Shown here: positions 1,511-43,237 of the stretch, one piece after another
How the letters are laid out: each line of letters starts with the position of its first letter
How positions within the stretch are numbered: the first letter of the stretch is position 1
DNA from: Psammoneis japonica
Taxonomy: Eukaryota
Reading direction: 5' to 3'
DNA length: 64,000 nucleotides
Assembly: GCA_008632985.1 (NCBI GenBank)
Contig: QPGO01000026.1
Coordinates: 496,001-560,000 of the forward strand
Program-made: the position numbers and the translations under genes
Notes under the pieces: model-generated
Told to the model about the DNA's origin: nothing
The model's database searches: none
Seen by the model: only the letters and a program-made list of their open reading frames with translations

Positions 1511-1539
1511 GGTTCACCTCAGCAGTGCCGACCTTGGAT

Positions 1540-15008: not shown

Positions 15009-16990
15009 GTCACGGATGGAAAGCACAAACGGTTTCAATATTATCCAAATTCATATTGATTGTATATATATATAAGATATTCAGAAAAATTTACGAACCG
15101 TTATCCAATAAAATGATCGAACGGTTTTTTAATTATTACTCGTTTCTCTAATAATGCGATAGTAAGTGCAATACGTTACATACAGTAGCAGTTCTTTGGA
15201 AACATCAACGAGGCGAGATGGGCGGTCATGCTTGCGCTTGCGCATTAGGCGCGCGTACTGTACAATACAGTGAAGGAGCACTACTCGCGAGTAGAGTTTA
15301 GTTGAGGTTACAACTTTCATCCTGACCATGGCGTTGATGACTGATGAAGACTTCCAAAGAGTCGCCACAGAGTTTTCTTTTACACCCCAGGCAACGCACC
15401 ACTCGTTCGAGGCAGTTGGCTTTGGATGAACGGCGCCAACCCCCGTTCGTCCGTCCACATCAACGGGTGCCGGGGTGCAGGGAAAACAACCTCATTGAAT
15501 CTGATTGGATTGGCTCTACAGGCTGAAAATTTGACTGTGTACTTTTTTGAGAACTCAACATTGCTGAACCGAGAAAATGTTGTCCATCTCGTCAAGACCC
15601 TGGCCAACAAGAAAAAAGACGTGTGGCTTCTAATCGACGAAACCCAAGACAACGTCGGAGGAGAACTTTTCACTCTCCTCCTGAAGAATGCCAGGAACCA
15701 CAAGATCACCACGGTTGGTGCTGGTGTCCCCAAGTTCAAAACGACGAGTCAAAAGTTCATGCAAAAAGTCAACACGTCTGACCTCTTCTTGTTGTCAAAC
15801 GAAGTGATGGTTTGCAAAGGCACGGTGGATTGTTTTTTGGGTTTTGTGGCAGCAGTCAGCAAATTTGCTGCTGCCACTGCTGCTGCAAATGTTGAAAGTC
15901 TCCACACAGTCTTGGAACACATGCATGCCTGCATTGGTGGGCACATCCATCGCTTGATGTGGCTCTCGGAGGTTCTGGTGAAGAAGCTTGTTGCACACAA
16001 GGCCACAACACCAAGGGACATTAAAGCACTTGCATTCAGATGAGTTGCAAGGCCACTTCCAATGCAAGGCCATGGTTGATTGGTGTCTGTCTTGTCTGTT
16101 GATGTGTGTCCATTGCTGTGCAAAACCAAGAACCCAATGTCGCTTTATGATCTCAAGCGAAAAGGCTTCTGCAACACCAACAATGAGATTTTATCAGAAT
16201 TTCTCTTTAAAGAATTCATCTCAAAGATGTCATCAAGTCACTCTTTCAACAAGCAATTGTCACATGGTGTTGAAGGTGTGCAGCAACTTCTTCAGTTTGC
16301 TCTTCCAAATCCATGTTGGACCATGTGCACAACCCATTTGGCAGGCCCTTTGAAGATGTGCTGACATTGGAACTTTTGACCATTCTTTTGGGAGTTTCCT
16401 GTTTCAAAACTTGATTGTTGAACCCAAAGCTTGTCAATGTTGGCATGGCAGCAAGAAAACCTGACCCACATTTTGACTGGTGATTGGAGGTCTGTGGTGT
16501 TGGCAGGTGTGGATCTGGAGAAACAGGTGGTGGGAGAGTCGCACGGAGTGCGCTCTGGGATGGAGAGAAAAAGGGTTGGCCAAGGGTGCAGACAGATGGT
16601 TGAGAGGAGGAGTTGGTGATTGTAGGATGGCAAAGAAGAAAGCTTGACATGCTGAGAGGTGGCTGGAGAGAGCAAAGTTGAAGTTGAGGCTGAGGATTTG
16701 AGAGGCCCAGAGTTGGGGGGTTGCAGTGTGATGGGAAGAGCCAAAGCGGTCCAGCAAAAGTTGTCTCAATTCTTGTGTTGATGCTTTTGTTGAGTGCATC
16801 CTGATGAGAGCAAACAATGAAAATGTCACGGATGGAAAGCACAAAATGACTGTCAAGGATTGTTGGGTTTCCATGTCATCCAAAAACACATTCATTTTAA
16901 TTGCAAATCAAACGGTTTTTTCATTTGTTGCTGGTCTTTCTAACATTGCAACAGTGCACTTTGTCAGCATTGTTCCTTAGAAACATCCAA
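15009..16990 (+). repeat. Local duplication of an upstream non-coding segment: 15009-~15210 (intact) and 16825-~16990 (TpA/CpG-eroded)
   Basis: Identical 21-mer GTCACGGATGGAAAGCACAAA at 15009 and 16825, followed by alignable sequence. Each copy precedes a P-loop NTPase remnant. Confidence 0.75.
15328..16360 (+). pseudogene. Decayed P-loop NTPase gene
   Basis: Walker A INGCRGAGKTT and Walker B WLLIDETQ. Frameshift after the first ~33 codons and further stops downstream. TpA and CpG content falls along the gene. Confidence 0.65.
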
Positions 16991-17189
16991 TTGCACCACT
17001 GCAGGGCCCTGCATGCTGGCATGCATCCTGCACAACTCTGTCACCATTGTCAACAACCAACAACAGGCAACCAGCCCCATCAGTGGAACTCAGAAAGAAA
17101 ACCAAGAGGATGTGCCGGTCAAGGAATCTTTGGCCTCCCCAAGCCAGGCTTCCAGCTTTTACTTTGGCAGCTGATGCAGCTGGGCTCAC

Positions 17190-17960
17190 AATGGCCATTC
17201 ATGTCAGTTGGGTTGCCCCAGATGAAAATTTGGGACAGGCGCACAGGAAAGTCAAGGAATTGATGCAGCAAAGAGCAATTCTCTGTGGTTCTGACCCCTC
17301 TTTACAAAACACACATTAATTGATCTTTGCTCACAATCTGGCCTGGTTCCTCAGGGTGTGATTTGCACAATGTGCACACCGGTTGGCCATGGAAAGACCT
17401 TGGGTGCCATGTCTGTCCTTGAGAATTTTCCTTTCCCAGGAGAAGGAGAAAAACATGCAAGGGGATTTGTGCTTGCTGTCAAGACATTGACAATGACCAC
17501 ATGTCACAATTGAATGCCTGTCTTGGAGTGATGGCGGTCAAGGGTGGGTCCATGCACTTCCACTTGCCATGAACAAACTGGAAAATCTTGAGCCATCTCT
17601 GCTGATCCTTGATGAATTCAATTTGCTCAGTGAAGACCATGTCAATGACAGCTTTGTTAAGAATTTGTGTGGCTTGATGATTGCAAAGAAAAACATGCTC
17701 TTGTTGCAATCAGCACACAGGACGAGACTGTTGCCAACAGGCTCTGCAGTCTGAATGGTGGGCAAAGAATTGCCCCAGTGCCGGGCACTTTTGCAGGGGA
17801 TGAAACATTGCCAAAGTGGAGCAGGATGAAATGGAGCAGAGAACTCCTCATTGAAGTGGTGCACCAAGAATTCCCAAAAAGTTTCCTGTGAATCATGAGT
17901 TTGAATTTGTTGTTGGTGACATGATGCCACTGCAAGCAACAGCTGCTTTGTTGTCTTTGC
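17190..17960 (+). pseudogene. Second, more decayed P-loop NTPase-like gene
   Basis: Walker B-like SLLILDEFN followed by TQDETVANRLCSLNGGQRIAPVPG, split across frames. Confidence 0.45.
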
Positions 17961-18639
17961 AAGAATGCACTGGCAAATGGGGTGTGGCTAATTCCTCACC
18001 ATGGAGATCCTCACCAAATGCTCACCATGACTTTTTCATCACACGATGTGACACCATTGCATTCTTTGCATGTGAACTGCCACATCAATGGGGCATTTTG
18101 AGCCAAAGACACCCCCCCTCATCAAACCATCCCTGACATGAAAAAAAAGATGCAAACATTGATCACAGTGCAGCAAGCTGAAAGCAGCACAAATCACTTC
18201 ACACCATGTCATCTTTTCTCATCTCTGCCAATCTCTCTGCTCTCTGCCATCATCATGTGCAGTGCGCATCATTTGCATGGAAGCATTGCAGCACCGCAAG
18301 AACAGCAGAGAGGCTGCACAAGAAGCCATGTGTTGCATTGTTTTGTCTCTGCTGATCTCCTCAGCATCATGCACAGTACACTTTGCTTTTGTGGAAATGT
18401 TGTGACACTGCAAGGACAGCAAAGAGGCTGATGCTCAAGAACTCAACAAGCCAGAAAAATGTGCTCCCAAGCAGCACCCACACTGCATTGTGTCATGAGT
18501 TTGTCTTGTGCGTTGCACATGTCCAACTGGGTCAACCAGCATGGTGCCATCAGCTCGCCAGAAGTCAAGCTCAAAAGAAGCAAAGCAAGGAGCTCTCAAC
18601 CAAGAAGTGGGTCATTGCAGATTGACAAGAGGATTGATG

Positions 18640-20660
18640 CGAAAGCATGCCGCTTCCAATGAGGAGACAAGTCATGAGAGAGACAATGAGTGTTGCAAGA
18701 AAGTTTTTGAACACAAGTCTGCACAGCCATTTCCTCAAGGCCGCTTGTTTGCAAGTCATGCACAGCTCGTGCAGGTGGCAAGGGAATTTCTGGAGATGTG
18801 GGGAATGGAGGGAGTGCACAAACAGAAAAGTGTGTGATGCCACTTCTCTGAGACCAAAAAGAAAAAGAAGGTTCAACCACTTGCTGAAAGATCCAATCAC
18901 CAAAACATTGGCCCAACAATGAAGAGCAAGTGCAATGCCCATTCTGCACAATGCACAGCTTCACAGAAAAGAAAAAGAATTTTTTTGCAAAGAAGGTCAG
19001 GCTTGACATTTTCCACAAAGTGAAGATGACATCGGTGGTGTGTCAGCACACCTGCACGCTGAACACGGTGCATCATTGAAAGGCAAAATGAGCTGGCAAT
19101 GGCACTCAACCCAGCTTGCAAGGACTTCAGAGCATTGTGGAAGATCTTCACATGAAGCCAAGCACAAAGGCTGAAAACCTCTGCCTCAAACTGCTCAAGC
19201 ATTTGCCTTTGCACGTGGGTGCTGATGCAAAGCACCTGATCAACTTCCAGCAGCCATGTCAGCAACTGGGTGCTGAATCACAAAGAAGATGAAGAAGTTC
19301 CATGTGACATCAAAGAAACCCATTGCTGCCAATGGGCTGATTGTGATGACAGCTCTTTGACTGGAGCCAATCTTAGAAAGATGCTCAAGAAAACAATGCA
19401 AGAGGATGGATCCACTTGGGGATGCACTGCATTTTCTAGAGGATTCAAAGAAGTTGCCACATGGCTTTGACTTTTGTTGGAAAAAAATGGGGCCGGCCAC
19501 CCCAAAGCCATCTGCTGCATGACAGCAGACATGCACCATGAGTTGATTTGGTGTGGCAACATTCTTTTCCTGGATGGCCAGAAATGACAGCACAACAGTC
19601 AAGGATGGCCGTGCATCAGGCCAACCATGGAGGACTGCACCAAAATGAAAGTTCAGTGTGTGGCTGTGTGCACTTGTGCCAAGGAAGTCCACATGTGCTG
19701 CCAATGGCAGATGGTCTTGTCCAGGAAGAAAATGGAGCCAAGTTGGATGTTGTCAGTGACATCCAAATCATCTTTGCTGGCCAGCACATGACTCAAGGCT
19801 TCATTGATTCACTGGAAGCTGAAAAGGTTGATTGTGAAAATTGCATCCTTCTCTGTGGGACCATTGTCATCTGCTTGAAGAAGTGTTCCCATCAAATGAA
19901 TGCTTTGGAGTGGCACTGCATTCTTTCATCCACAACCAACTCTGCTTCATGCTCCAATCCAAAAGGCAAGAGGAGTGGGTGCTGCACATGATTCTGCAAA
20001 GGGAACTGTGAAGGCAAATGCTGCAAAACTGTCACTGCTTTGAGCAATTCATGGCAACCCAGAGCATTGTGCACCTTGGTGCTGGTGGGAGTTGGTCAAT
20101 TGCCATGCACACAAAGTGCTTGTGCAAATGCCAAGAAATCCTGACCCACAAGCAGAGAAAGAGAGGGAGATGATCTTCATGTCATCATTTCCTCTTGGCA
20201 CAAATCCAAACACAGAGGTCAAGTTGGCAATGATGTCCAGCTGGCCAAGAGAACCTTTTCTTGGCATGGATGGAAGAATCTCTGCACCTGTGCCACAAAC
20301 AAAAACAAGTGCCTTCAAGTCAGTGCAACAGAAAACAATTCAAAGCACGTTTGGCCTTGTGGCAAGGACATCGCCTGTGACAAATGTGTGGTTGTGCCAT
20401 CAGGAGAGCAGTGCCCCCACTCCATTTGTGAATTCCCTGTGGCACTCAGTGTCAGCATGAACTGTGCACCAACAGAAAACCAGTGCTGTCAAAATGGCAT
20501 CTTTGGTGGTTGTTGGAGCAAGTGCGCTTGGTGGAAATGTCATGTCTCATGTGCACACTTTAACAGAAACCAAGAATGATGACAGGGATGGATCACAGGA
20601 CAGCTCTCCCTTTCATGATGGCCAAGTCCCACTCAAGATGCTGCACAAACTTTGAATGTT
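18640..20660 (+). mobile_element. Decayed MULE/Mutator-like transposase
   Basis: Remnants RLFASHAQLVQVAREFLEMWG, LKKTMQEDGSTW, and DIQIIFAGQHMTQGFIDSL resemble diatom MULE/SWIM transposases. Many frameshifts; TpA and CpG are nearly absent. Confidence 0.55.
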
Positions 20661-21344
20661 GAATGCCAAGGCACCTCCAAAGACAACAATGACAAGGGTG
20701 GCAACAACAAAAGTGACAAGGGCAAATGAGTTGATGTGCTCCATTCATGTTTGGATGAAGAAGACAAAGCTCTGCTCCTTGCTTGCCAGGAATTGACCTC
20801 TCAACCATCAAATGTCACAAGGCCACTTCAAGGTGACCAACCCAACATGGCAGCACTTTCCTCATTGCTGCGAACAATTGCCGACTGAGCAAGACATGGG
20901 TTGAGCACAAATGAGAGCTTTGACTCCTCCTCTGCACAATCACAAGAGAACTTCTTGACAACCCAGAAGCAAGCCCATTGGAGTGCACATTGCTGGGTCA
21001 GTTTGCTGAGCCAGATGACTCTTCATCACACAATTGTTTGCCACCACCACTTTTGCCACACTCATTTCCTGGAGTGTGTCCAACCACATCATTTGTAAGA
21101 TGTCTTCTGGATTGGCAGACAGACTTGTTCCTTTGTCACAACAAATGAGCCAACCTTCAATCTTGTGCACTGAACTCTCTCAGCATTCAGTGTGAGTGCC
21201 TTTTGGCATGTTTGGCATTCCATGGATGCAAGAGTCACTGGCAGATGATGTGACACCCCATGAAGTTTTGAGCAGCAGTGTTTTGCAGCACAGCTGCATT
21301 CATTGATCCTGTGAAGTGCAGGCGTCATTTAGAAAAAATGTCAT

Positions 21345-22250
21345 GAGACAGCGCAACAGTGCTTTTGACATTTTGGAAACATGACAGCCACAGAAACATT
21401 GTTGCCTGTTGACTCATCACAGCATTAAAAGCACAGGGTTTTGCAGTCACCAAAACAGTGCTGACTGTGTTGGGATTTGTTGTGGCACCTGTGGGAGGTG
21501 ATGGATCAAGCCAAAAACAGCACAACACAGTGCAACAGTGCTTTTGGCATTTTGAAAACACAACAGTCATGGAAATGTCACACCTGTTGTTTCATGCATG
21601 GCAGGAAAAGCACAGGGTTTGACAGTTGCCAAAATGATGCTGGCTGCATTGGGGCTCATTGTGGCAGTTGTGGGAGGTGCTGGAGTGTGAGCCAAAAACA
21701 GTGCAAGACAGTGCAACAGCACTTTTGCCATTTTGGGAACACAACAGCCATGGAAAGATTGGTGTCGCATGTTGTTTCATAAAGAGTGGGAAAAGTGTGG
21801 GGTTTGACAGTCACCAAAATGGTGTTGACTGCATTGGGATTTGTCATGGCACCCAAGGGAGGGCGGGGCTGGAGCAAGCAAAAAATGGCACAAGATGGTG
21901 TGACAGCATTTTTGACATTTTAGGAACACAAAAGCTGCAAAAACATTGTCACCTGTTGTCATGTGCATGGTGGGAAAAGCACAGGATTTGACAGTTGCCA
22001 AAATGGTGCTGATTGCATTGGGGTTCATCATGGTGCCTGTGGGAGGTGCTGGAGTGAGCCAAAAATGGCGTGAGACAATGTGGCTGCACTTTTGACATTT
22101 TGGGAAAACATGACAGCCATGGAAACATTGTTGCCTGTTGACTCACACTTGGCAGGAAAAGTGCGGGGTTTGACAGTTGCCAAAACAGTGATGATTGCAT
22201 TGGTGCTCATGATGGTGACTGTGGGAGGCACTGCAGCATGTCAAAAGCAG
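21345..22250. repeat. Degenerate tandem repeat, about 5 units of ~180-185 bp
   Basis: Anchor GTGGGAGG(TG) at 21491, 21670, ~21855 (variant), 22039 and 22221. Recurring ...AAAAGCACAGGGTTTGACAGTTGCCAAAA and CTTTTGRCATTTTGG motifs. Confidence 0.85.
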
Positions 22251-23159
22251 TGTGAGTTTGCAGCAAAATGATTTTGTCAGTGGCAAGGCGATGAGAAGCA
22301 AAGCACCATCATCAACTCTTGCACCAGGAGCATCAAGAATGGTGCAGGAGGGCATGGAAGTCACAGAAAGGCAGCCACAGCACTTTCATTCATGACAGGA
22401 GCTGCGGCAGGCACTGGAGCATGAGAGACAGAGTTTCAGCAACCAAGCTCTGATTTTGGCAGCAACTGGCACACAGTGGTCACAGAAACAACATTGCCTG
22501 TTGCACCAGAGGCACTGGCACTGACTGCATCAAGTGATGCCTTGTCAGGGGAAGGTTGTGGAGATGAATTGCTGGAAACCGTCATGTTTGACTTGAGTTG
22601 ACTTGTGTTGAGTGTTGACATGTGCTTTTTTTGCAGTGCCAGCAATGCCAGTGGGGAGAGGTTGGCACAACTCACAATCCTGATGGCCGACAGATGTGGT
22701 GGGCATTTGGCGAGGATTGCCACAGCAAGAAATTAGTGCAGCGCTTCTTGGCTGGAGACGTCCCCCAGTCCTGACCACTCTAGACTGGTTGTCCCATGCT
22801 TGTGTGCTGCATTTTCAGCCAATCATGTCATGTCTTCAGTGAATTGTGACTCAGCAATCCCCAATTGTGATGATGCAACATTTGAGAATAATTTTGTCTT
22901 CAAGCCATTTATGACTCAGCAACATTTAAGACCACTTGCTAAATGGACAGACAGAAAAGACGCTGCATGCAGCAGGAAAAATCCTCACGCACACTTGCCA
23001 CTCTCGAACCGCTGCAGCACAATGGCGACTGGCTCCATTCATGAATCGACCATCACTGTGACAACACAAGGGTTGACAGCATTGATGCAAGGTGCAAAGA
23101 CTATTTTTTTGTTGGTGTCTCCTAAATTTCTTTTGTTTCCATTGTGCTCAAATGGAGCG

Positions 23160-24050
23160 TGTGTTTTTGGTTTTGTTTTCTGCTGCCAACAAGATTGCTG
23201 CTAACAATGAACCATGAGGACCATGAGGGCGCACCAAAATCATTGAGACAAGGCAATGTGAACATGTCGAGTGTGATGGGGTTGTTTCTTTGTTGGCATC
23301 TTCTGCATTTCTGTTGTTTCTGTTCCTTTTAATTGGACAGTGTTTTGTTTTGTTTTCAGCTGATGGCATTGCTTGACACACTCAACCACAAGTGCCACGA
23401 GGGCACACCAAAAGCATTGATGCAAGGCAACAGGAATGTGCCAAGTGCAATGAGTCTGTTTCTTTGTTGTTGTGTTCTCAATTTTGATGTTTCCATTCCT
23501 TTGTTTCTGCTGCAGGGCTGCAACAGGCCACCAGCTTCGTGGGACCTTGGTGTCTGTGCTGTCCAGGCCACTGATGTTGGCACGGTGTGGCAACAGTTGG
23601 TGTGGTGGACCGGTGCAATTGTGCAAGTGCAAACTGTTTGTTGCCACCATGTTGGATCCCAATCCTGAATTGATGCTTCCACGCTGGGAAGTGGTGATGT
23701 GATGTGCACCAACACAAACAGAAAAAAGAACAAAACAAAAAGACACCAAGAACACCTTTGTCATTTGATGACTCCTCAAAGTTGTTGTGTTCTTTTCTGT
23801 TTTTTACCTGTGCAGATGGTTGGTGTTTTTTCTCTGCTGCCGACAAGATCATTCATGAATCAACTGGTGCCAGGGTGATGCGACGGGCAACAGAATTCAC
23901 AAAGGCAATGCAAGTGTCTCAAGTTTGATGGTGGTGCATTTGTTGTTTGACAAATCCTGACATTTGTTGCGTTCTTTTCCATTTTCTGCTGCAGTGCAGA
24001 TGGTTGGTGTTCTTTGTTTTGTTCTCTGCCGACAACAAGATCAAGGCAAA
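23160..24050. repeat. Degenerate non-coding direct repeats
   Basis: GAGGGCRCACCAAAA..ATTGA..CAAGGCAA at ~23225 and ~23399 (~175-bp spacing). TCTGCTGCCRACAAGAT-like motif at ~23179, ~23833 and ~24026. Confidence 0.55.
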
Positions 24051-25743: not shown

Positions 25744-26132
25744 GACGCGTTCCAGGTCTAGGTGGGACCTCGTACTGCTGAACTGTGACATCGATAGTTT
25801 TTTGAATCTCGTCGTATGTCGCGCACGTAGAATTCTACGTGATTTTTTGATATTTTGTGTCATTTTACGGTACACTTATTGAGCGATCCGTCCAAAAACT
25901 TTTGACATTTTTTGTTACAGCGCGATTCTATGCTGTCTTAAGAATCGCGTAGGGCAGGTGCATTTGCAAAAACGTCGAGTGGTAAGAGGCATAATTGTAC
26001 CACAAACTTGGCCGTTTATTTGATGTTGAAGATAAATGTATCCATTAATTAAATTCTCGTACTACGGAGCTCGCACGTAGAATTCTACGGGCCCAATGTC
26101 ACACGGAGTCCCACCTAGGGCTGGAACGCGTC
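25744..26132. mobile_element. MITE copy 1 (389 bp), TIR GACGCGTTCCAG..CTAGGTGGGAC, 4-bp TSD CGCC
   Basis: Left end GACGCGTTCCAGGTCTAGGTGGGAC, right end GTCCCACCTAGGGCTGGAACGCGTC. CGCC at 25740-25743 and 26133-26136. Near-identical copy at 53689. Non-coding. Confidence 0.93.
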
Positions 26133-32408: not shown

Positions 32409-33439
32409 CGTGTCATAGAAAAAAGAGAACATTTCCTAATTGTCAACCAATTAAAGCAACATGTTCGGTGCTGAACGTTTTAAAATGCATGACTGAACAT
32501 GCAAACAAACAATGCTTTCGAAACCAACCTCGTTCGTCCAATCAGGCTGTGCATGCCGGTGCAGTGCGATTTCAGACCAAACACGTTCATTCTGGCATGT
32601 TTCTGCATGAATTCTGTCCGTTTTTCGACACAATCCGCGATTTCCCACAGAGCTTCTGAAACCAACATGAACGAGTTCCGTGTGATGCTGATTTTGCAAA
32701 TGCCAATTGGATGCGGCGTCACAGTTGCTGGTCACAAGGATCTCCGCAATCTTGTTCATCCCATGGTTAACCTGGGGGCAGCAAAGCAACTGGCTCACCT
32801 TGCGAATGATGAAAGGGCAGAGGCACTGGAAATTCTCGTACAAAATTGTGATGTTGAACATCATGGGGACAACTGCAAGGAGTGTGCAACCTGCAAAAGC
32901 CATGAAAACAGAGTTGAAGAATTGATCAAGGAACATTTTGTCAAGAATCAACATCTCTTCTCCCTCATGGGTGTGGATGGTGTTCCCAGCATGAAGAGAT
33001 GTGGAACGTGCTGCTGGGAGAAAATGCCAGTGATGCGCGCCAAAGTTGCTGAAGACTCCGCCAATTCCATCCAACAATGCAAGCAATTGAAGGTTGCCAA
33101 TGTGGAGGTTGGTGCTGCGGTTGACCTTGACATGACGGGCTTTGTTCCCAAAACCAGGGAACCAGCCAAGTGGACGACACCTGCCCAGTGGCCAAACAGA
33201 CCAAGAATCATGACGATGGCATGATGACGCTGTCGCGGAATTGCCAAAGGAAGAAACAGCAAGCAGCATGAGTGTCAAGGTTGACACCCCTCCAGACGAT
33301 GCAACCAATTTGGGGGGATGCCACATGGTTGGGGTCACCCTGTCTGAGCCTGTGTCCCCTGTGACAGTCAAGGTTCTTTCTTGTGCATGACACAGACAGA
33401 AGACATCAATGTTGTGACACACGCCAACATTTTGCACGG

Positions 33440-34138
33440 CACCAATGATCATTTGTTTGGTCGCAATGCCAAGTTAAGGTCGGACGCTGCCCGTCTGCTC
33501 GTGTGCAAGAATTTCTGAAAAATTGCGACAGATCCGGAACCAAAGATCATGAATTTTACACAGCCTCTCTCTGTGACGGTCATGATGAACATCACCTAAA
33601 CTGCAATGTTTGCAGCCCAAATTTTGTGGATCAACCAATGCGTGAGTTTGGTGGAGAGTTCGCGGAAATCAACATGGACTTTTTCTGGTTGCAAAAGGGA
33701 TGGTTGAGCAACCAGTTCAGCAAAAACTTCTTTGGCAGAACAATCCCCGATTTAGCAAGTGCAATGAAAGTCGGCGGAGTTTTCTTTGTTCCCTTTAACA
33801 TTGAGACCTTTGTTGGTTACGTGGAAAATGAAAAGACTCTCAAGGAAAAGTTCGAAATCTGTTTTCCAAATCACCTAGAAACAAAAGTTTTGCTTCATGA
33901 GCCACGCCAATGCGGTTGCTTTGACAAACTGTTGTGTCACCAGAAACTGGGACTGGACCACAGACGTCAGATTGACAATCACCTGGCTGGAGTGTCGCAA
34001 CAGGAAATCCAAGAGTCAGTTCCAGAATGCATGCGTGGTCATGAGGTTAAACTGTGGACCAGACTACGGAACAAATCCCAGCAGGTGGATGTTTGTCAAT
34101 GGATGTTTTTTAAGAAGAGGCAAGTGATCAGAGGTTGA
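33440..34138 (+). pseudogene. Hypermutated gene with a possible Rossmann-fold methyltransferase-like segment
   Basis: EFAEINMDFFW...FFGRTIPDLASAMKVGGVFFVPF resembles the FD.I..DPP(Y/W)...L...LKPGG.hhh pattern of class I SAM methyltransferases. Confidence 0.3.
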
Positions 34139-34699
34139 TGCTTGTTGTCCCATCATTGTCAGCATCTTCATTTAGACTAATGTGCTGTGTGTGTTCATTG
34201 CTGGTCAACACGGGAACAGACATTGTGCCTGATGGAGTGACAAACAAAAAAGTCGATTGAGTCAAACCACTCCACAGAAGTTGGTGACGCCTTTAGATGT
34301 CAGGTTGTTTGCGTGCGTTGCCGTGTTGTCGTGACATGATCATCAAGAATTTGTTCCACAAAGTTTGTTCTATTTCACAAATGCCCATGGAACGAGAGTT
34401 GCAAGAAATTGTTCACCAGCAGAATGGAAAAGCGGAAGAACCACAGTTGCAATGTGTCAGCACACCGAAAGCCACCTGCAAACCAAGCATGTTTGATCCT
34501 CATTGTTCAGGCCCTCTTTTCCTTTGCCCATTGTGGGGAACCAATCCTGGACCAAAACCGCAAACCAACGTCAAGACCGACTGGGAGAACAGAATTTGCA
34601 ACTGGGACAACAAGGTTTGCCACTGCTGTTTGTGCCAGCTTTGGTGGCCAGAACCTCTTTGTGTGAGATCCACCAGTTCAACCACCAAGTGCCAGGTCA

Positions 34700-37600
34700 T
34701 CTCTTTGTCTGCTGCAAGGACCTGGCTCACCAACTGTTGATCCTGCTCATGACACTGTCAAACTTGCTGCGTTCAAAAACAAAGTTGGGCATCTGCGCGT
34801 GGCAGCCACACTGGACGTTTCGATGCATTCATCCGTTTTGTCAGAGTTTTGGATTGATGAGTTATCTCAATCAAGCACGTCAATGCAACGTTCGAAAAGC
34901 ATGTTCTTGCACACCCTTTTGCAGGTTTGGTGTGCAAAGGCATCCTCTCCCCGCTTCTGCACTGTCTTTTAAATTTTTTTGGCTTTGGTTTTAAGAAGTC
35001 TCTCACCTGTAGAAGCACGCGTTTGCATTGGATCTCCCAGGAACGTCCGGTGGAATGGGGTGTGCAGCTGAGCGTGATTTTTCCCAGTGTCGTTGTCAAC
35101 AGTCCTGTCGCTGTGACAAATTGTTGTGTCCATGTGTGCAACAAGAACTCTCTTGACTCCGCAGCCCAGGGCTTTGCCGTCAAGCTGCACTTCCTCAGGG
35201 AGCTGACAGGAACAGTGACAATGTGCGTGACAGCAAAGAACATGTTCAAGAAAGGATGAAAAGGTCAACATGTCGGACAGCACAGAGCCTGTGCACCCGT
35301 TGCCCTTTGGCTGGGGTTTTTTGCAATGATGCTTCTCCGCACAATTGTGCATTGGGAACAAAAGCTGATGTGGGTTGTCAGTGTCTTCCACATCGGCATC
35401 TGGTTCTGTTGATGGTTGCTCAAGTTTCTTCTGTGCGACAGTCTTTCTCAATTTTTGGTCGAGACACTTCTCCACATTGGTCACGAACTCCACCTTGAGG
35501 ATGCCTTGGCACCTGTCCTGTGGGATTGGGCACATGAGGGATTGGGCACGTGAGGGATTGCACACCTCCCTGGGAGGGACATGAGACATGCTGTTTTCCC
35601 TTGATTGCCTTCAAAATCTTCCAAGATTCGACAAACTGCTGATCTGTCTGGAAATTGTCAAAACCGTCTTCAAGCAAAAAGCCAAAGCCGTGGAGCTTGA
35701 GGTTCTTGATTGCAAATTGGACCAAACAAGGTTTTCTGTCAAATGCGTTGCTGTGGTTGTGGTCTGTTGTGCAGCACAAATCTTTCCTGAAGGGAAAGAC
35801 ACTGGGTGGCAAGGCGGGGTCATCCTCTGGTGTTGTGTCTGCGGCCTGCGGCAGGCTTGGTGGCTGGCTCAGTCAACTGCCGTTTCCTTTTTTCTCCAAT
35901 GGCATGCATCCAGTTCCTTTGCTTGGTTTTTCCTTCTGTGATGACTTGATCTTAGATGCTGATGGAAAGGTGGTGCATTTCTTTGCTTGTTGTTCATGAG
36001 CTTTTTTCCATCATCTCACGCGTGCCACTGCACTGCATCGCTGCAGCTAGATGAAACAACATTCCAATCTTTTGGAGTGTGTCATCAGGGTCATTCTGGT
36101 GAACCGGAGCTCAAACAGCCTTTGGGACAGTTGCAAAAGGCACTGGATCTGGTGGACCCCACCACTGCCACCAACTCCTTTTTGAATGATTCCTTTTCCT
36201 TTGAGTCAAACCATGATGCACAACAGTGGCTACATTCTCTCCACCTCCAGCCTCCGAAGAGTGGAGATGATTGTCCACGGTGGTGGCAAAGACACCCCAG
36301 GGGTCACTGTCAAAATCAACACCATCAAAGGCATTTCTCAAGGGGTGCATTGTGCATGGTCTGGCTGGCAGGGCGATGGCAAGCTTCTGTTGCCATTTCA
36401 GGAAATCTTCCATCCGTCCGCATGTCAAGATTTCATTGGCGGATGCACCGTGACAGCCAAGTGCCATTTGTCAAGATGCAACACTGTGCTCAGATTTTTG
36501 GAGTGCAAGACAGGCTGTTTTCTTTTGTGGGGAGGAATGTGTTAGAGGCATTTGTTGACAAACACATGTGCAATCTGTGAACCTGACCGGCGCCACCTCC
36601 ATTGGTGGCCTTGCGACCGCATGTGCAGTCCTGTGATTTCTGGTCACCAAAGACAGGGCCTTGGACAAGGAGAGCGCGCATTGGCCAACATCGCCCACCC
36701 AAATTGACCATCATCCCAGGAGGGTGCTTCTGAAGATGCTTCAAATCCTCCAACAGAAACAACAACATGTCCTGGCATGCCTGCATGTTTGCTGACAAAT
36801 CAGGTGATGACGAATCATCCTCCAGGGAATTGCCACTGTCATCGGCAGAAACAGAGGAGGCACCTTTGTTGGTGCTTGGTGTGAAACCTGAATTCCAACA
36901 GGAGAAAGAGTGTTCACGAGCTTTCCTCTTCAAGAGGAGGGTGCAGAATGACCAGGGTTCAAGTGGATGTTGTTGGCAGGCATCTGTTCTTGTCTGGTCT
37001 GTGCACGAGCCTGTTGGCAGAAGCAGGTCATTCTCGGGATCGAAATCGGCAGGGAGGTTGTCGCAGGTGTTGGTGACCATTTGTTGCAAACTGTTTCTCC
37101 GAGGTCACAGTTGTTGACTGGAACAAACTTGCAGAAACGTTCATCCATTGATTGGTTCACATTGAGATTGTGATGGTTGTCAAAAAGGGAGTGGGCAAGC
37201 AAGTCCCTCAACATGTCCTGCATCCAGAAACGGGCAACTTGGGGCCACGAATGATGCGTGTGTCTGGCTTGGGCAGGTGCACCTTCGCACTGAGGCTTTT
37301 AAGCAACTTTTTGCGCCGAAGTGCGCTGGAGGCATCAAACCTCTTTTTCTTACATGGATGTTGCAGTGAGGTGAGCAGGGAATTGCAGAATCCTCTGGTG
37401 GCACCGAAATTGTCACACAATGTGTTCAGCTCAAGAGATGCTTCCTCAGCCAACATGAAGCTGTCGTCAGGGGGGGGGGCAGTGGCACATTTTCTTCTGC
37501 ATCCACACCAATGTCAGCAGAAGAGTCAATGGTGCCAGGAAACATTTCGAAGAGAGACATGGTGTCGTCGTCCTCTCCATTGGTGTCAGAACCATTGCTG

Positions 37601-37900
37601 CATGTCGAGTCATCATTGTCTTGTTCTTTTGGGGCACCATTGTCAGAATCCAAATCAGTGGCAGTGAACTCTCCAGGGCAACTAGCCGGGGAACTGGTGT
37701 TGGAGGTGTCAACGGTGATTTTGGAGGAAGAGTGATTGTTGGATGGAGATTGGAAGGAGGACGTTGACGGCAAGTCCTCATCCCCACTTTGACGGAGGAG
37801 CAACACAGTTGCTTGGGACAGAGTGCTCAAATCACCAGAAGAGATGTCAACACAACCGATTTGGTGGGGCTTGCATTTGCAGCGACGGGCATGAACCATT
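34700..37900 (-). mobile_element. Plavaka-type transposase, hypermutated and frameshifted
   Basis: QDMLRDLL, LLLP..CTDQTRTD...PLEPWSF..LLKRKARE..W..GFTPS, VFGDQKSQDCTCGRK..GGAGQVHR..MC, NAFDGVDF...GVF.TT.D.HLHSSEAG, and STGERLLKTKAK occur in the order expected for Plavaka transposases. Confidence 0.7.
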
Positions 37901-40094
37901 TGCAAAGGATCAAATTGCAGGGTGGGGGTGCACACGTTTGATGGGAAACAGTGTGGACTTCTTGGAAAACAGGTTTGCTGATTGATTTGAAATCGAATTG
38001 TTGAACAGGCAGTGGAGTGATTGAAAATGCACGGGCGTGCTGTGCAGCCAGTCGGGCATTTAAAAATGCAGTGAGGGACAATTGCATTGTGTTTGAAACT
38101 TGGGTGAGTGAATTCAAAATGCACAAGTGAACATGTGGGCACAAATGAAATAAATGTGCATCTCATGTTCAGGACATGAGGTTCGCGACATGCAGGGAAA
38201 TCACATTTGCAACGGTGAACCGGCCAGAAAACAAGGTGCGCAAGACTGGCACAGGAAGGGACGAGCACTTGGGAAACAAAACCACACAAAAAACAAAGCA
38301 AAGACATGGCAACCACGGTGCAGAGGCAGATCAATCCAGCTGAGTGGATGGACGACAATGAGAAGGTGGGCAGAGACATGGTGAGGTGAGAGACCACGTC
38401 AAAGACAAGGTGTTCCTCAGCATGATGTTCGTGTTTGATGCCAGGCAGTTGGAGGAAACCAACATGCTGCACAGAGACTACGCCCAGAATTGCGGACCAA
38501 CGCTGATGGACAGAATGCTGCCGGAGCTCCCAGAAGTGGTTCAGAAGAACTGCCTGCATTTCCTGTGGATGAAAATGAAACAAACCAGGTTGTGCCAGGA
38601 TTGGCTTGCAATGAAGTGATCCAATGCATGTCAGGCACAGCAGGACAAATTTCACAGCAAGCAATGATGCAGCTGTGGATTGCTGTTAAAAATGGGGGTG
38701 ACGACTAACATGGGGATTGTTTTGTTGCCATGGACGCAGTGCTGTGTGCCTGCTGTGAAAAGAACAATTGCATCTTGTCTTCACCTGAAAGATTCCAAGA
38801 TCAATTGTCGAATCCAACATTGCAGATGGTGTTCCATGACTGCTTGTTGCAGCCAGTTGTGGGAGACATTCGTTGGAAGAAAAGCCCAACCAAAAAAAAA
38901 GGTTGGTCACATCATGTGCCGAGGCATTCGCCCACATGCTCCTCAAGAACAACTGTGTTGCGTGGCATGCGGAGTGCAAGAGCAACAACAACAACAGCAG
39001 TTTGATGTCAGACCACGATGTCAAGCTGACAACCAAGGAACACCCACCAGAAGGGGAGACTTGTGTGAGACTGTGATGCCAGATGTCACAGTTCTCAAGG
39101 TGGAGCATGAAAATGGATCAAGCTCATTCACCATTTTGGAAAAGAAACCTGAAGAAGACACAGAGCAAGGAATGGCAGAGGAAATGACAAACAAATTCAA
39201 GGAGGCAAGGGAGGAGTCCATTGAGAGCCACAACAAATGCATCAGGAAGGTGAGAGAGGAGCAATCAATGCAGGACAGGTTGTCAGTCATGACAGAGGTC
39301 ACAACAGAGCCACAGAACAACAAGAACCTGCCCAATGAAGAACATGGGGCAAAGAAGAGAAAGTGCATGAGATGCCTGAAGCACTTCACGGCGGGTGACT
39401 CCAAGAGCGGAGATGCGGAACAAGGGAGTGCACCCAGGAAATGCAAGAGGGCGGCTGGAAGAGCAAGGGATGGTCACTGAGGGTGAACAAGTTCTTCAAG
39501 AAGATGGTGAGGGAAATCAAACAAGACATTGTGAGCAAATGACTGGGCCGATGGGAGGATTTGCACAGGAAGATTGTGGCAGAGCGTGACAGGAAAGTGG
39601 AGGAGGGGGACAATGAGTTGGAGGATGAGGAAGACCACGTGGTGGATTGCGCCAAGACACACGAACTGGAGTCAATGCCATTTTAGCAGACAATGCATGA
39701 AAAACAGCTGTTGCGTTTGTTGCAAATGACGTTGCAGACAAAATCTAAATTGAACAACTGCATCACACGGTGGCAATTGGAAAGCAATTGGGGAAGGGCT
39801 CAACACAAATGGCGTTTTGGGACACAAGTCAAGCAATCTGTTGTCAGTCAGTTGTCGAAAGTGTTCAAATGGAACATCGTGATGGAGTCGACTTTTTACA
39901 TTGCAGTCAACTCATTGGTTTTGGAAACTGTGGACATTTGTTGGAAATGCCGGACATTCATTTGTACAAAAATCACACACATTTGTCACAAATGGGTGTG
40001 ATTCGTGTTTGTCGGCGTCATTTGTTCACAAATGAATTGACATGGTTGTGCTCACACATGTTTTGTCAGACTGCGGCAAGGTTGGGCCCCTGAT

Positions 40095-40620
40095 GAACAC
40101 ATTGAACATTGGTTGACTGCAACTCATCAACTCCAGAAGAAACCTGCAGGTGCAAGGCACGAGCATGCATGACGCGACCACGTGTGCCGTTGTGCACACA
40201 ATGCTTCCAGCCCTCACACCAAAATGATTCTCTTCTTTGACACAGATGCTTCTGGCAGATGATGCCAACTGTGGACACTGAACATTGGTTGAGTGCAATT
40301 TGTCAGCTCTAGAAAGAACCCGCAGGTTGCAGGCAAGAGCATGCATGATGCATCCTTGTGTGCCATTTTACACACAATGCTTCTGGCCCTCACACCAAAA
40401 TTATTCTCTTCTTTGATGCAGACACCACTGGCTGTGGAGTGCCGCTGGCCATGGAGCAGGGATTGCTGCCGCAGGATTGCTGACAAACATTGACTGCAGC
40501 ACTCTCTCTAAAAGAATCCTGCGGTGGTTTTTTGTTCATGGAAAGGCGTGCACAACGTGACCGCATGAACCGTTTTGCAAATGATGCTTCGGGCCCTCAC
40601 AGCAAAATTCTTCTTTGGTT
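40095..40620. repeat. About three degenerate tandem units (~180-200 bp), probably a coding repeat on the minus strand
   Basis: ATGCTTC..GCCCTCACA.CAAAA at ~40201, ~40376 and ~40583. The minus strand reads (N)FGVRA(G/R)SIVC or FAVRARSIIC three times. Confidence 0.7.
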
Positions 40621-42129
40621 CTTCTTCTCTTCTTTGATGCAGGTGCTGCTGGCTCTGGAACAGGGATTGTTGCTGCCACAGAATTGGCTGCTTGCAGGTT
40701 GGTGGGGAAGCAAAACAGTGACAAACTGCCAAACAAACCAACACTTGTTTGGATCCATGGCAATGGCGGCATCGGAGCCGGGCGGAAGGGCAATGATGGG
40801 AGTTTGGGGAGAGTGGCTCCCTGCTTCAGAGTTTCTTCACACAAAATGTCTTCCACTGTTGACTCAAAGTCTGGACCAAAATGTTCAAAATCTGGTGGAT
40901 CAGCAACTCCAACATTGTCGGTCAAGCATGCCGTCGCATTGGTTGGGCCGACAAGCGAGTGATTCTGGCTCAGCAAAGGCGGGGTTTGCAAGCCAGCATC
41001 TGGTGTGGAAGCCAAGCAATGCAAAGGATCCACAGTGGGGATGCTTTCCCATGAACAGTCTAGAACTGAGCAACTCAGCAGTCCACCGCCTTCTTGAGTT
41101 GCAAGAAATGCGCTCTCCAACAGACCCCTCCTGAACAAATTGTTTTTGCACTCCTTTGGCAGTGCCAGAAGGAAATTGGGCTGCACCTCTTTCAGAACCC
41201 AAACAGTCAGTTCATCTGGTGGATGGCAATTGGAAGCATTCAGATTTCTGTGGCACATCGCATCGTGACCCTTCTTGCAGCATGGTCCCCTCACACACCG
41301 TGGACACATTTTTGTTCCGAAGTCAACTCGAGTGAGCATGTTCTTTCGCATTTCTTTGCTCTCATTGAAAAGACAGTGTGCACATCTAAAAATTATTTGT
41401 TCCTCTGTTGCTGGGCATGATTCGCAAACCCATTCCAGCAAGTCGGCGTGTTCTGTTCAAACATTTTTAACTTTGAGGAAGACGGCGTGGGTGCTCCTTT
41501 TTGCACTCGCACTCATTTTGACAAAGAGCAGAGCCGCAACAACAAGAGCAAGAGTTGCAAAGTTGTGATGAGATGCAGCAATGTCGTGCTTCTTGAAAAG
41601 GAAAAGTGTCGACAATGGAAAAGCATGCAGCACGGTGACGTTCAACAATTTTCAAAGATTAGCGCGGCAATTTCTATTTGTCACATCTACGGAAATTTTG
41701 TATGAAGGGGGGCCATGTCGCATGTGCCAAAATACGGCCGAATTTAATGGGGGGGCTTACGTAAAAACAGCGCCCCCCCCCCCCCGCAAAATCTCCCGCG
41801 GATAGATGGATAGATATCCGTCCGTCCGTCCCTCGACCATTTGAATCGTCAGTCCGCCGCTGGTGGAAGGGGACAGACATTGGCGCAGGAATGGATTCAC
41901 TCGACTAATTGAATGACTGTGGTTATCCAGAATGCACCCACGCTCTACTACTCGCTCTAAGCAAGCAAAAATAGTAGCTAGTAGCTAGCTAGAGTGCTCA
42001 TAGATTGATCTGTGATCCATCTGTTACAGTTCTATGTGACGCTTCTTTCTTATTTTGTGTACCCTGGCAACACTTGTTGGTGTCCTCGACATTGTGGCCT
42101 CTTCAACTCGTGCGAGTGCTAGTTGCTTT

Positions 42130-43190: not shown

Positions 43191-43237
43191 TGCGACTGCT
43201 TCTCTCTAGTAGAGACATGATTTCTGTAGTTGACATT

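What the first reader, a model, noticed from the sequence alone, without database searches (positions are those of the whole stretch)
15600..41700. Domain-restricted TpA->TpG/CpA hypermutation: a candidate 'reverse-RIP' genome-defence system
Seen: TpA is almost eliminated and TG/CA is dominant over 26 kb here and in three other domains (~1230-3830, ~8270-10045, ~50760-55030), while adjacent genes have normal TpA. AA runs persist, so this is not a general AT->GC drift. Unrelated relics (CRE RT, Harbinger, Plavaka, MULE, multicopper oxidase) all show conserved Tyr (TAY) replaced by His (CAY) or Cys (TGY), so both strands are hit. Established: 5mCpG decay gives CG->TG/CA, and fungal RIP gives CA->TA, which creates TpA. 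Neither removes TpA. Inference: silenced repeats undergo targeted A:T->G:C mutation at TpA, for example by a TadA/ADAT-like DNA adenine deaminase, deamination of a modified adenine, or Pol eta-like error-prone repair. This destroys Tyr codons, TAA/TAG stops and GTA splice donors. I know of no described mechanism that accounts for it, but I could not check the literature.
Basis: partly seen in the sequence, partly recalled or inferred. Interest (0 to 1): 0.92.

Follow-up and report, generated by a model that had tools for sequence, protein, structure and literature searches.

The report
TpA-erasing hypermutation of foreign DNA blocks
Four sharply bounded blocks of degenerate, partly repeated DNA have lost almost every TA dinucleotide to TG or CA, matching a TpA-targeted hypermutation of integrated foreign DNA that a 2026 preprint showed directly in the alga Bigelowiella natans, so the pattern is real and remarkable but no longer undescribed.

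Summary
In 33,805 bp of depleted blocks there are 148 TA (O/E 0.07). In 28,694 bp of flanking DNA there are 1,097 TA (O/E 0.55). TG and CA rise to 1.67 and 1.74, and the summed pyrimidine-purine O/E is unchanged (3.87 vs 3.86). Edges are sharp, within about 100-200 bp.

A TpA>TpG/CpA process aimed at foreign DNA fits, but it is already described. A bioRxiv preprint (10.64898/2026.01.13.699255) reports mutation-accumulation lines of B. natans in which 230 of 231 new mutations in two integrated viral regions were A>G or T>C. All of the GC-biased ones fell at TpA. It also reports 124 TpA-poor, CpA+TpG-rich clusters.

- The fungal transposon relics: 0 of 274 frames reach a Pfam threshold.
- Tyr>His/Cys: 0 of 4 testable Tyr.
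- Repeat induction: a 91%-identical 7.4-kb duplicate and a roughly 1,400-copy MITE are untouched.

Three things here are not in the preprint's main text:
- A separate, uneven CpG loss.
- A flank hierarchy of TA removal: ATA > GTA > CTA > TTA.
- Block edges that coincide with structural breakpoints.

The mechanism is still unknown, and I could not name the organism. One earlier scan note on a phage concerns other DNA.

The parts
1640..3830 (.). TpA-depleted block 1. 3 TA in 2,191 bp; TA O/E 0.02, CG 0.28, TG 1.66, CA 1.86.
   Evidence: No Pfam family in 25 frames.
8270..10040 (.). TpA-depleted block 2. 2 TA in 1,771 bp; multi-copy in the run, with summed depth 473-564 against about 57 for unique DNA.
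15320..25743 (.). TpA-depleted block 3a. 48 TA in 10,424 bp; TA O/E 0.07, CG 0.25. It starts at the beginning of an NTPase-like frame and holds P-loop relics and tandem arrays. Partly multi-copy (depth 98-426).
15348..16043 (+). Frame with AAA_14 / nSTAND NTPase-5 similarity at the left edge of block 3. It is already TpA-poor (5 TA) while CpG is still normal up to about 15800.
   Evidence: AAA_14 E 2e-6.
21346..22250 (.). Tandem array of 179 bp x 5 inside block 3a. Copies differ mostly by transitions and alternate CA/TG at the same dinucleotides.
   Evidence: TRF; 71 transition columns, 17 transversion, 7 multiple; CA|TG 27 column pairs vs AC|GT 4.
25744..26132 (.). 390-bp MITE copy A. It has terminal inverted repeats of about 30 bp and a 4-bp target duplication. 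TpA and CpG are normal. It is nested in the depleted block.
   Evidence: Depth about 54,000-80,000 and an empty-site joint 25739>26133.
26133..41650 (.). TpA-depleted block 3b. 90 TA in 15,518 bp; TA O/E 0.09. CG is 0.55 overall and 0.72-0.89 at 29-33 kb. Close to single copy where depth was laid (71-83 at 26.7-28 kb).
31221..32405 (+). 395-aa open frame inside block 3b. It is a relic or member of an uncharacterised protein family (homologue P0121, 44-45% identity over about 230 aa).
   Evidence: No Pfam family for it or for its 6 homologues.
40099..40422 (.). 176-bp x 1.8 tandem repeat inside block 3b (83% matches).
50810..53688 (.). TpA-depleted block 4a. Homology between the sequences that follow the two giant-gene copies ends at about 50810, and TpA loss starts there.
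53689..54078 (.). 390-bp MITE copy B, 96% identical to copy A, with normal TpA.
54079..55030 (.). TpA-depleted block 4b. 1 TA in 952 bp.
43222..50668 (-). Control: 7.4-kb gene copy 1, a 2,453-aa ankyrin + UvrD-helicase frame. TpA is normal and it has not been hypermutated.
55164..62629 (-). Control: gene copy 2, 91% identical and split into 1,081-aa and 1,393-aa frames. TpA is normal.

Best explanation
The four blocks are foreign or selfish DNA: degenerate genes, partly repeated families and tandem arrays. They lie among virus- or bacterium-like intronless genes in a eukaryotic genome.

In place, this DNA has undergone a targeted mutational process that converts the A:T pair of a TpA dinucleotide into G:C on either strand (TpA>TpG or CpA). 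The process has run almost to saturation (93% of expected TA gone) and stops at the edges of the inserted segments.

It is the same kind of process shown directly in Bigelowiella natans mutation-accumulation lines.

A second, slower and separable process removes CpG (CpG>TpG/CpA) in the older or repeated parts. This is most simply deamination of methylated cytosine.

Shown here: the composition, the conserved YR budget, the strand symmetry, the in-place divergence of tandem copies, the sharp edges, and the flank hierarchy ATA > GTA > CTA > TTA.

Inferred: the direction (TA is ancestral), the defence role, and the enzyme. My preferred enzyme is a DNA-acting adenine deaminase of the TadA/ADAT2 type, guided by chromatin or small RNA. 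I put that at about one chance in three.
For: 1. TA O/E is 0.07 in the blocks and 0.55 in the flanks. TG and CA are 1.67 and 1.74, against 1.14 and 1.17. The summed YR O/E is 3.87 vs 3.86, so what TA and CG lose, TG and CA gain.

2. At 29-33 kb CpG stays at 0.72-0.89 while TpA is 0.10-0.16. TpA loss therefore does not depend on CpG loss.

3. Tandem copies formed inside a block differ at 71 transition columns, 17 transversion columns and 7 multiple. They show CA in some copies and TG in others at the same dinucleotide in 27 column pairs. AT|GC does so in 6 and AC|GT in 4. This points to independent hits on either strand of a palindromic YR step after duplication.

4. Residual TA is strongly context-dependent: ATAT 0 in the blocks vs 89 in the flanks, ATAC 2 vs 163, TTAA 36 vs 54 (chi-square p 2e-24). 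The 5'-flank order A<G<C<T recurs in three separate sets of blocks, with p 1e-10, 2e-14 and 0.014. This is what an enzyme with sequence preference would leave.

5. Edges fall within about 100-200 bp. One edge coincides with the end of homology between two duplicated flanks.

6. Separately built contigs of run X1 contain the TpA-poor sequence.

7. Direct precedent: in B. natans, 231 of 302 new mutations fell in two integrated viral regions. 230 of the 231 were A>G or T>C, and all GC-biased ones were at TpA. The genome has 124 TpA-poor, CpA+TpG-rich clusters (preprint). 29 of the 64 1-kb windows here pass that paper's two thresholds, in five runs of 3 or more.
Against: - Direction is not shown from this window alone. 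In the one relic with a homologue, only 2 of 141 mismatches are explained by reverting TG/CA to TA. The homologue's 4 Tyr face F, R, V and Y, not His or Cys. At 45% identity this test has little power.
- CA|TG alternation could equally come from ancestral CG.
- The nature of the blocks as 'foreign' is inferred. 0 of 274 frames reach a Pfam threshold. No viral relative was found for two queries.
- A MITE of about 1,400 copies sitting inside two blocks keeps TpA O/E 0.93. Either the process is over there, or it is not domain-wide.
- The X1 contigs may come from the same sample and platform as the assembly.
- The flank preference does not obviously match the natural ADAT2 substrate. That comparison is from recall, not from a call.
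Confidence: 0.8

Rival explanations
1. Same in-place TpA>CpA/TpG process, but driven by modification of the thymine rather than deamination of the adenine. For example, hydroxylation to 5-hydroxymethyluracil by a TET/JBP-type enzyme, followed by mispairing with G or error-prone repair.
For: On double-stranded DNA, T>C at TpA and A>G at TpA give the same signature. Nothing or 66 separates them. The identifiable flank term is a sum of a -2 and a +1 effect, so either base could be the target. That some protists replace T by 5hmU preferentially at TpA is my recollection, not a call.
Against: No TET/JBP or deaminase gene is in the window. TpC shows no depletion (TC O/E about 0.9-1.1). The preprint's authors found an ADAT2-like candidate and did not report a JBP candidate.
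Confidence: 0.12
2. The blocks arrived with this composition. They would be foreign DNA whose donor already lacked TpA, or that was edited as RNA (ADAR-like, with U at -1) and reverse-transcribed before insertion. There would be no in-place DNA process.
For: Block edges coincide with insertion-like breakpoints. Parts of the blocks are multi-copy. A-to-I RNA editing with U at -1 is known in fungi (PMC11156358, abstract seen in the listing).
Against: TG and CA are equally enriched, and both occur within single 179-bp units. RNA editing of one strand would give one of the two. Tandem copies diverged by this very pattern after they formed. The left edge of block 3 lies at the start of a still recognisable NTPase frame, not at a transposon end. 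To my knowledge no natural genome signature reaches O/E 0.02-0.09. In B. natans the mutations arose in place in single-copy DNA.
Confidence: 0.05
3. Sequencing, base-calling or polishing artefact that writes TG/CA for TA in modified DNA.
For: The only run that holds the sequence may be the assembly's own sample. The platform is not on record.
Against: Logan's separately built contigs reproduce the TpA-poor sequence with 2-15 differences per 0.7-2.2 kb. The MITE nested inside the blocks keeps 56 TA in 779 bp. Artefacts do not produce CA|TG alternation between tandem copies or a conserved YR budget.
Confidence: 0.02
4. Ordinary decay of methylated CpG alone explains the TG/CA excess. TpA is low for unrelated reasons.
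For: CpG O/E is 0.39 in the blocks, and as low as 0.08-0.19 at 16-23 kb.
Against: It cannot remove TpA. At 29-33 kb CpG is 0.72-0.89 while TpA is about 0.1 and TG/CA are still 1.2-1.6. The flank dependence of CpG loss (TCGA lowest at 0.20, CCGG highest at 0.78) differs from that of TpA loss (ATAT lowest, TTAA highest).
Confidence: 0.01

Closest known systems
TpA-targeted hypermutation of integrated NCLDV and virophage DNA in Bigelowiella natans (Mettrop et al., bioRxiv 10.64898/2026.01.13.699255; abstract, Results, Discussion and one Methods section read)
   Same: TpA>TpG/CpA on both strands and local restriction to non-host DNA. [quoted passage not shown] The neighbourhood of long virus-like frames also matches. 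The TpA share of the flanks here (3.8%) is close to the 3.3% given for that NCLDV insert.
   Different: - The blocks here are saturated (O/E 0.02-0.09), against Rho 0.45 for the actively mutating insert.
- They are partly multi-copy.
- They also lose CpG. The preprint's main text never mentions CpG (0 occurrences).
- They show a flank hierarchy that its main text does not report (0 occurrences of 'context', 'flanking' or 'trinucleotide').
- The organism of the window is not known to me.
Repeat-induced point mutation (RIP) of ascomycete fungi
   Same: It is a dinucleotide-specific, transition-only, locally bounded mutational defence that ruins selfish DNA.
   Different: The chemistry and outcome are opposite: C>T at CpA creates TpA and lowers GC. 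RIP is triggered by duplication. Here a 91% duplicate and a MITE of about 1,400 copies are untouched. TpA>TpG/CpA also makes no new stop codons.
Deamination of 5-methylcytosine at CpG in methylated transposons
   Same: It accounts for the CpG loss and part of the TG/CA gain in the blocks.
   Different: It does not touch TpA. Its flank dependence here differs from that of the TpA loss. Methylation itself was not measured.
A-to-I editing enzymes with a 5' U preference (ADAR; fungal TAD2/TAD3 mRNA editing; TadA/ADAT2 and engineered adenine base editors)
   Same: A>G outcome with T/U at -1. An ADAT2-like protein is the preprint's candidate.
   Different: These act on RNA in nature. DNA activity is reported only for special cases cited by the preprint. 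No enzyme was identified or tested here.
APOBEC3-type hypermutation of retroviruses and retroelements
   Same: It is a host deaminase that mutates invading nucleic acid in a dinucleotide context.
   Different: It deaminates cytosine on single-stranded DNA during reverse transcription and is strand-asymmetric (G>A). Here the change is at adenine or thymine, symmetric, and on resident chromosomal DNA.

Membership tests
TpA-targeted hypermutation of foreign DNA (B. natans type) | [quoted passage not shown] | tested here: met
   29 of 64 windows pass. The runs are 3, 2, 9, 3, 8 and 4 windows long, and five of the six have 3 or more.
TpA-targeted hypermutation of foreign DNA (B. natans type) | Changes are A:T>G:C transitions at TpA, on both strands | tested here: inconclusive
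There are 27 CA|TG alternations between tandem copies. Direction could not be polarised, and new mutations cannot be observed with these tools.
TpA-targeted hypermutation of foreign DNA (B. natans type) | Targets are integrated viral or other non-host sequences | tested here: inconclusive
   The neighbours are intronless RecD2, Cpn10, PhoX and ankyrin-UvrD frames. The blocks hold P-loop relics and a relic of an unnamed family. However, 0 of 274 frames reach a Pfam threshold, and two viral-contig scans found nothing.
TpA-targeted hypermutation of foreign DNA (B. natans type) | Elevated local mutation rate measured in lines or between isolates | not testable with these tools
   There is only a hint. 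Single-copy-depth contigs of X1 differ from the window by 2-15 letters per 0.5-2.2 kb in the blocks, against 1 per 3.5 kb and 1 per 1 kb in flanks. Some of these contigs may be paralogues.
Fungal RIP | C>T at CpA giving TpA excess and AT enrichment | tested here: not met
   TpA O/E is 0.07, CA O/E is 1.74, and GC is 0.488 vs 0.471.
Fungal RIP | Triggered by sequence duplication | tested here: not met
   The 7.4-kb pair at 91.3% identity has 372 transitions and 270 transversions, with no TpA excess: per-site rates are TR 0.043, CR 0.048, AR 0.035, GR 0.039. The MITE has TA O/E 0.93.
5mC-driven CpG decay | CpG depletion with TG/CA gain | tested here: met
   CG O/E is 0.39 overall and 0.08-0.19 at 16-23 kb. 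This explains only part of the pattern.
5mC-driven CpG decay | Cytosine methylation present on the blocks | not testable with these tools
   No modification data were available.
ADAR-type hyperediting fixed by retrotransposition | A>G on one (transcript) strand of retro-copied elements | tested here: not met
   TG and CA are equally enriched and alternate within 179-bp units. No reverse transcriptase was detected.

The most novel reading that the evidence does not exclude
The window shows a guided DNA-editing defence with its own sequence rule. It removes TA most efficiently in ATA/TAT contexts and least in TTAA. It respects the borders of the invading segment to within about 100 bp. It is not triggered by copy number, and it works alongside a separate CpG-decay pathway. 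If the window is not from the strain studied in the preprint, the system exists in a second organism and may be a widespread eukaryotic counterpart of RIP built on adenine (or thymine) rather than cytosine chemistry.
Probability: 0.3. Interest if true: 0.85.

Novelty: new member of a known kind. Interest (0 to 1): 0.6.

Why it matters
Programmed mutation of resident DNA at A:T pairs is otherwise unknown as a genome defence. The known cases (RIP, APOBEC, AID) all deaminate cytosine. A natural system that turns TpA into TpG/CpA in double-stranded chromosomal DNA, within sharp borders, implies two things: an adenine- or thymine-directed DNA enzyme, and a targeting device that tells foreign from host DNA. 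Both bear on mutation-rate theory and on virus-host arms races in marine algae, and such an enzyme could seed new base editors.

This window adds saturated end-products. They can be read for enzyme preference (the flank hierarchy), for order of events (TpA loss before CpG loss, with later MITE insertion untouched) and for targeting (breakpoint-sharp borders, no copy-number trigger). It also shows that such blocks defeat ordinary annotation. They have long false open frames, because TAA and TAG are gone, and no recognisable domains.

Tried and rejected
- Whole genome: not held, so I could not do a genome-wide profile, family consensus or deaminase search.
- Six-frame read-through of the blocks for Pfam failed. 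I replaced it with 274 stop-to-stop frames, none of which reached a threshold. The sub-threshold CxC4 (KDZ-associated) hit at 16080-16361 (20.7 bits against a cut-off of 26.9) is probably a by-product of Cys-rich TG-rich translation. I give it no weight.
- Homologue searches. Frame 33449-34135 found none. Frame 31221-32405 found none by the word-indexed search but 6 by full HMMER.
- Codon-level polarisation against P0121 was uninformative.
- Self-comparison by blastn and tblastx found no similarity between blocks, or between blocks and normal genes, beyond the repeats listed. There is therefore no mutated/unmutated paralogue pair in the window.
- The hoped-for pair after the two giant-gene copies ends exactly where depletion begins.
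- No terminal inverted or long terminal repeats bound the blocks.
- Viral-contig scans with RecD2 and P0121 found nothing.
- No tRNA and no Rfam family in the window.
- No RNA holder is listed among the public runs.
- Cluster look-up, the Atlas and one paper (PMC4586850) were unavailable. I therefore could not name the source of P0121 or compare the window with the published description of the B. natans viral inserts.
- The preprint's supplementary tables (cluster list, mutation list) are closed. They may already contain these blocks, the CpG trend or the flank preference.
- An earlier scan note on a T4-like phage with local TpA loss and CA/TG gain concerns other DNA with a different explanation, and did not change my reading.
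- Literature. Searches (182 and 24 papers matched; 25 and 15 listed) gave only the one preprint for DNA-level TpA hypermutation. One search gave nothing on cytosine methylation in B. natans itself.

Full report
**Observation.**
A 1-kb dinucleotide table and 200-bp counts show that TpA nearly vanishes in four places.
- I place the blocks at about 1640-3830, 8270-10040, 15320-41650 and about 50810-55030.
- Pooled, the blocks (33,805 bp) hold 148 TA (0.44% of dinucleotides, O/E 0.07). The flanks (28,694 bp) hold 1,097 TA (3.82%, O/E 0.55).
- At the flanks' rate, 1,292 TA would be expected.
- TG and CA rise from 1.14 and 1.17 to 1.67 and 1.74. AA stays at 1.0-1.5 and GC hardly moves (0.488 vs 0.471).
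- Edges are abrupt. For example, TA sites are dense up to 8149, then 8264 and 8268, then none until 9925. They are dense again from 10041, from 41660 and from 55031.
- The summed O/E of the four pyrimidine-purine dinucleotides is the same inside and outside (3.87 vs 3.86). What TA and CG lose, TG and CA gain, which is what transitions within YR steps would give.

- CpG is depleted too (O/E 0.39), but unevenly. It is 0.08-0.19 at 16-23 kb and 0.72-0.89 at 29-33 kb, while TpA stays near 0.1 everywhere. The two losses are separable.
- The setting is not visibly fungal. The normal-TpA flanks carry long uninterrupted frames:
  - a RecD2-type helicase (best database hit 51%, then about 35% to bacterial proteins);
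  - Cpn10, a PhoX fragment and a thrombospondin-type-3 repeat;
  - a 2,453-aa ankyrin plus UvrD-helicase frame, present twice.
- The named transposon relics could not be found. 0 of 274 stop-to-stop frames of 70 aa or more in the blocks reach a Pfam gathering score, and 9 have sub-threshold hits at E 0.0004-0.008. The 30 longest frames gave the same result.
- Because TAA and TAG are gone, the blocks are full of long false frames on both strands.
- Some real gene remnants exist. One is an AAA_14/nSTAND-like frame at the left edge of block 3. Another is a Walker-A/B remnant near 17.4-17.7 kb. A third is a 395-aa frame at 31221-32405 with one clear homologue (P0121, E 1e-45, 45%) from a family without a Pfam model.
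- In that relic the homologue's four Tyr face F, R, V and Y. Only 2 of 141 mismatches are explained by reverting TG/CA to TA, against 5 by reverting to CG and 0-2 in the controls. The Tyr>His/Cys claim is therefore unconfirmed, although the test is weak at this divergence.

**Is it in the reads?**
- One of three listed runs (X1, DNA, platform not on record) holds 0.74 of the sampled words.
- Its separately built contigs lie on the blocks at single-copy depth (about 48-61) with few differences: 673 nt with 2, 878 nt with 7, 986 nt with 7, and 2,156 nt with 15.
- On the flanks they show 3,497 nt with 1 difference and 959 nt with 1.
- This rules out an assembler or polisher artefact. It does not rule out a platform artefact, since the run may be the assembly's own sample.
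- Summed depth shows that parts of the blocks are multi-copy: 473-564 at 8-10 kb, 385-426 at 16.0-17.3 kb and 260-400 at 22.7-24 kb. Other parts are close to unique (71-83 at 24.7-25.3 and 26.7-28 kb).
- Differences between laid contigs and the window are mostly transitions: A>G 121, T>C 130, G>A 129, C>T 108, against 14-20 for each transversion.
- Among the 40 differences listed, several are TA against TG/CA and about as many are CG against TG/CA.

**Evidence for an in-place, strand-symmetric process.**
- The blocks are not copies of one another.
- Inside block 3 a 179-bp unit is repeated five times. Its copies differ at 71 transition columns, 17 transversion columns and 7 multiple.
- In 27 adjacent-column pairs some copies read CA where others read TG. 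The next most common double differences are AT|GC (6), GA|TG (5) and AC|GT (4).
- Two other arrays add 3 and 9 CA|TG pairs.
- A palindromic YR step (TA or CG) was therefore hit on one strand in some copies and on the other strand in others, after the copies formed.

**The process is not induced by repetition.**
- The two 7.4-kb gene copies (91.3% identical, about 4.5 kb apart) differ by 372 transitions and 270 transversions.
- They show no TpA excess. Per-site transition rates are TR 0.043, CR 0.048, AR 0.035 and GR 0.039.
- A 390-bp MITE has terminal inverted repeats of about 30 bp and 4-bp target duplications. An empty-site contig exists, and depth of about 54,000-80,000 implies roughly a thousand or more copies.
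- The MITE sits inside two blocks with TpA O/E 0.93 and CpG O/E 1.52.
- Its two copies differ at 15 sites, and 6 of the 9 context-resolved transitions are in a T-purine context. With so few sites this is only a hint.

**Borders.**
The sequence after gene copy 1 stays homologous to that after copy 2 up to about 50810. It then diverges, and TpA loss starts there. The left edge of block 3 lies at the start of the NTPase-like frame, just after a TA-rich stretch. I found no terminal repeats bounding the blocks.

**A sequence rule.**
The TA that survive are not a random sample.
- Counts in blocks versus flanks are ATAT 0/89, ATAC 2/163, ATAG 5/112, ATAA 17/172, GTAC 6/63, CTAC 18/166, GTAA 19/133, CTAG 14/53, CTAA 31/90 and TTAA 36/54 (chi-square p 2e-24).
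- Each flank is read 5' to 3' into the TA. Length-normalised survival then rises A < G < C < T in three separate sets of blocks: 0.035/0.075/0.128/0.274, 0.044/0.097/0.215/0.29 and 0.006/0.025/0.038/0.073 (p 1e-10, 2e-14, 0.014).
- An additive two-flank model reproduces the non-palindromic contexts roughly. That is my arithmetic on the ratios.
- Because the site is palindromic, a preference for A at -2 cannot be told from a preference for T at +1.
- CpG loss follows a different rule (TCGA lowest at 0.20, CCGG highest at 0.78). This argues for two processes.

**Comparison with what is known.**
- A full-text search (182 papers matched, 25 listed) brought up a bioRxiv preprint, 10.64898/2026.01.13.699255. 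I read its abstract, Results, Discussion and the dinucleotide Methods.
- In 15 mutation-accumulation lines of Bigelowiella natans, 231 of 302 nuclear point mutations fell in an integrated NCLDV region (about 186 kb) and a virophage region (about 25 kb).
- 230 of the 231 were A>G or T>C, and all GC-biased ones were at TpA. The rate was about 6e-7 per site per generation, and the mutations appeared in only 11 of the 15 lines.
[quoted passage not shown] Low-TpA coding sequences are enriched for DDE endonuclease and reverse-transcriptase domains.
- An ADAT2-like protein is proposed as the enzyme.
- By those thresholds, 29 of this window's 64 1-kb windows qualify, in runs of 3, 2, 9, 3, 8 and 4.
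- The preprint's main text does not mention CpG, nor context, flanking bases or trinucleotides.
- A second search found no other report of DNA-level TpA hypermutation among 24 matches.

**Whether the window comes from that alga.**
I cannot tell. No genome is held, names were unavailable, and the earlier description of its viral inserts is not held. The flanks' TpA share (3.8%) is close to the 3.3% reported for the NCLDV insert, but that is weak evidence.

**Mechanism.**
- Most likely (0.8): resident foreign DNA is marked, by chromatin state or small RNA. Its TpA steps are then converted to TpG/CpA on either strand until few are left, with ATA/TAT going first and TTAA last.
- Using the preprint's rate, and assuming it is concentrated on TpA, saturation would take on the order of 1e5-1e6 generations. 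That is my rough inference, and it is fast on an evolutionary scale. It would explain uniform TpA loss over sub-blocks of different CpG content.
- CpG loss follows more slowly, probably through cytosine methylation. It is deepest in the two stretches that depth shows to be most multi-copy (8.3-10 kb and 16-24 kb).
- The untouched MITE implies one of three things: the process is finished in these blocks, short or young elements escape it, or targeting is by element and not by position.
- The enzyme is open. A DNA-acting adenine deaminase is the leading idea. Thymine modification with mispairing gives the same footprint and is not excluded.
- Unlike RIP, this chemistry makes no stop codons and even removes TAA and TAG. 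Inactivation would work through loss of Tyr and ATA-Ile codons and of TA-containing signals, which is inference.

**Verdict.**
The pattern is real, far beyond chance and biologically remarkable, but it belongs to a kind described in a 2026 preprint. The new elements here are the separable CpG decay, the flank hierarchy, breakpoint-sharp borders, the lack of a copy-number trigger and the untouched nested MITE. An earlier scan note on a phage concerns other DNA and a different explanation.

Noticed in passing
window 25744-26132 and 53689-54078: A 390-bp MITE with terminal inverted repeats of about 30 bp and 4-bp target duplications (CGCC, TGTG). The two copies are 96% identical. Depth of about 54,000-80,000 against about 57 for unique DNA implies roughly a thousand or more copies. 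An empty-site contig exists (joint 25739>26133), and another contig joins 9558 directly to the MITE start. TpA and CpG are normal although it is nested in depleted blocks.
   Followed up: partly
window 43222-50668 and 55164-62629 (- strand): A 7.4-kb duplication (91.3% identity) of a 2,453-aa frame with ankyrin repeats and a UvrD/REP helicase domain. The second copy is split into overlapping 1,081-aa and 1,393-aa frames (a frameshift). The two copies are separated by a TpA-depleted block.
   Followed up: partly
window 5257-7500 (- strand): An intact bacterial-type RecD2 helicase (HHH_RecD2, AAA_30, SH3_13, UvrD_C_2). Its best relative in 5.8 billion proteins is only 51% identical, and the rest are about 35% (several named Verrucomicrobia or Opitutae). 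It looks like an old transfer into a virus or eukaryote.
   Followed up: partly
window 2250-2267 and 3564-3591: A run of about 15 C and an inverted run of about 25 G, which contains the window's only N at 3579, flank 1.3 kb inside depleted block 1.
   Followed up: no
window 4261-4836 (+), 12289-13122 (-), 1-561 (+): A Cpn10 (GroES-like) domain in a single frame, the C-terminal end of a PhoX-type phosphatase, and a thrombospondin type-3 repeat. All have normal TpA, and none is typical of a eukaryotic chromosome arm.
   Followed up: no
window 31221-32405 (+): A 395-aa frame stays open inside a depleted block and keeps 44% identity over 229 aa to an unnamed 270-aa protein (P0121). Five more distant relatives exist, and none of them has a Pfam family. 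All have acidic tails.
   Followed up: partly
window 16-41 kb: Single-copy-depth contigs of run X1 differ from the window about 10-30 times more often in the blocks (2-15 per 0.5-2.2 kb) than in the flanks (1 per 3.5 kb and 1 per 1 kb). This recalls the raised diversity reported for the B. natans viral insert, but some contigs may be paralogues.
   Followed up: no
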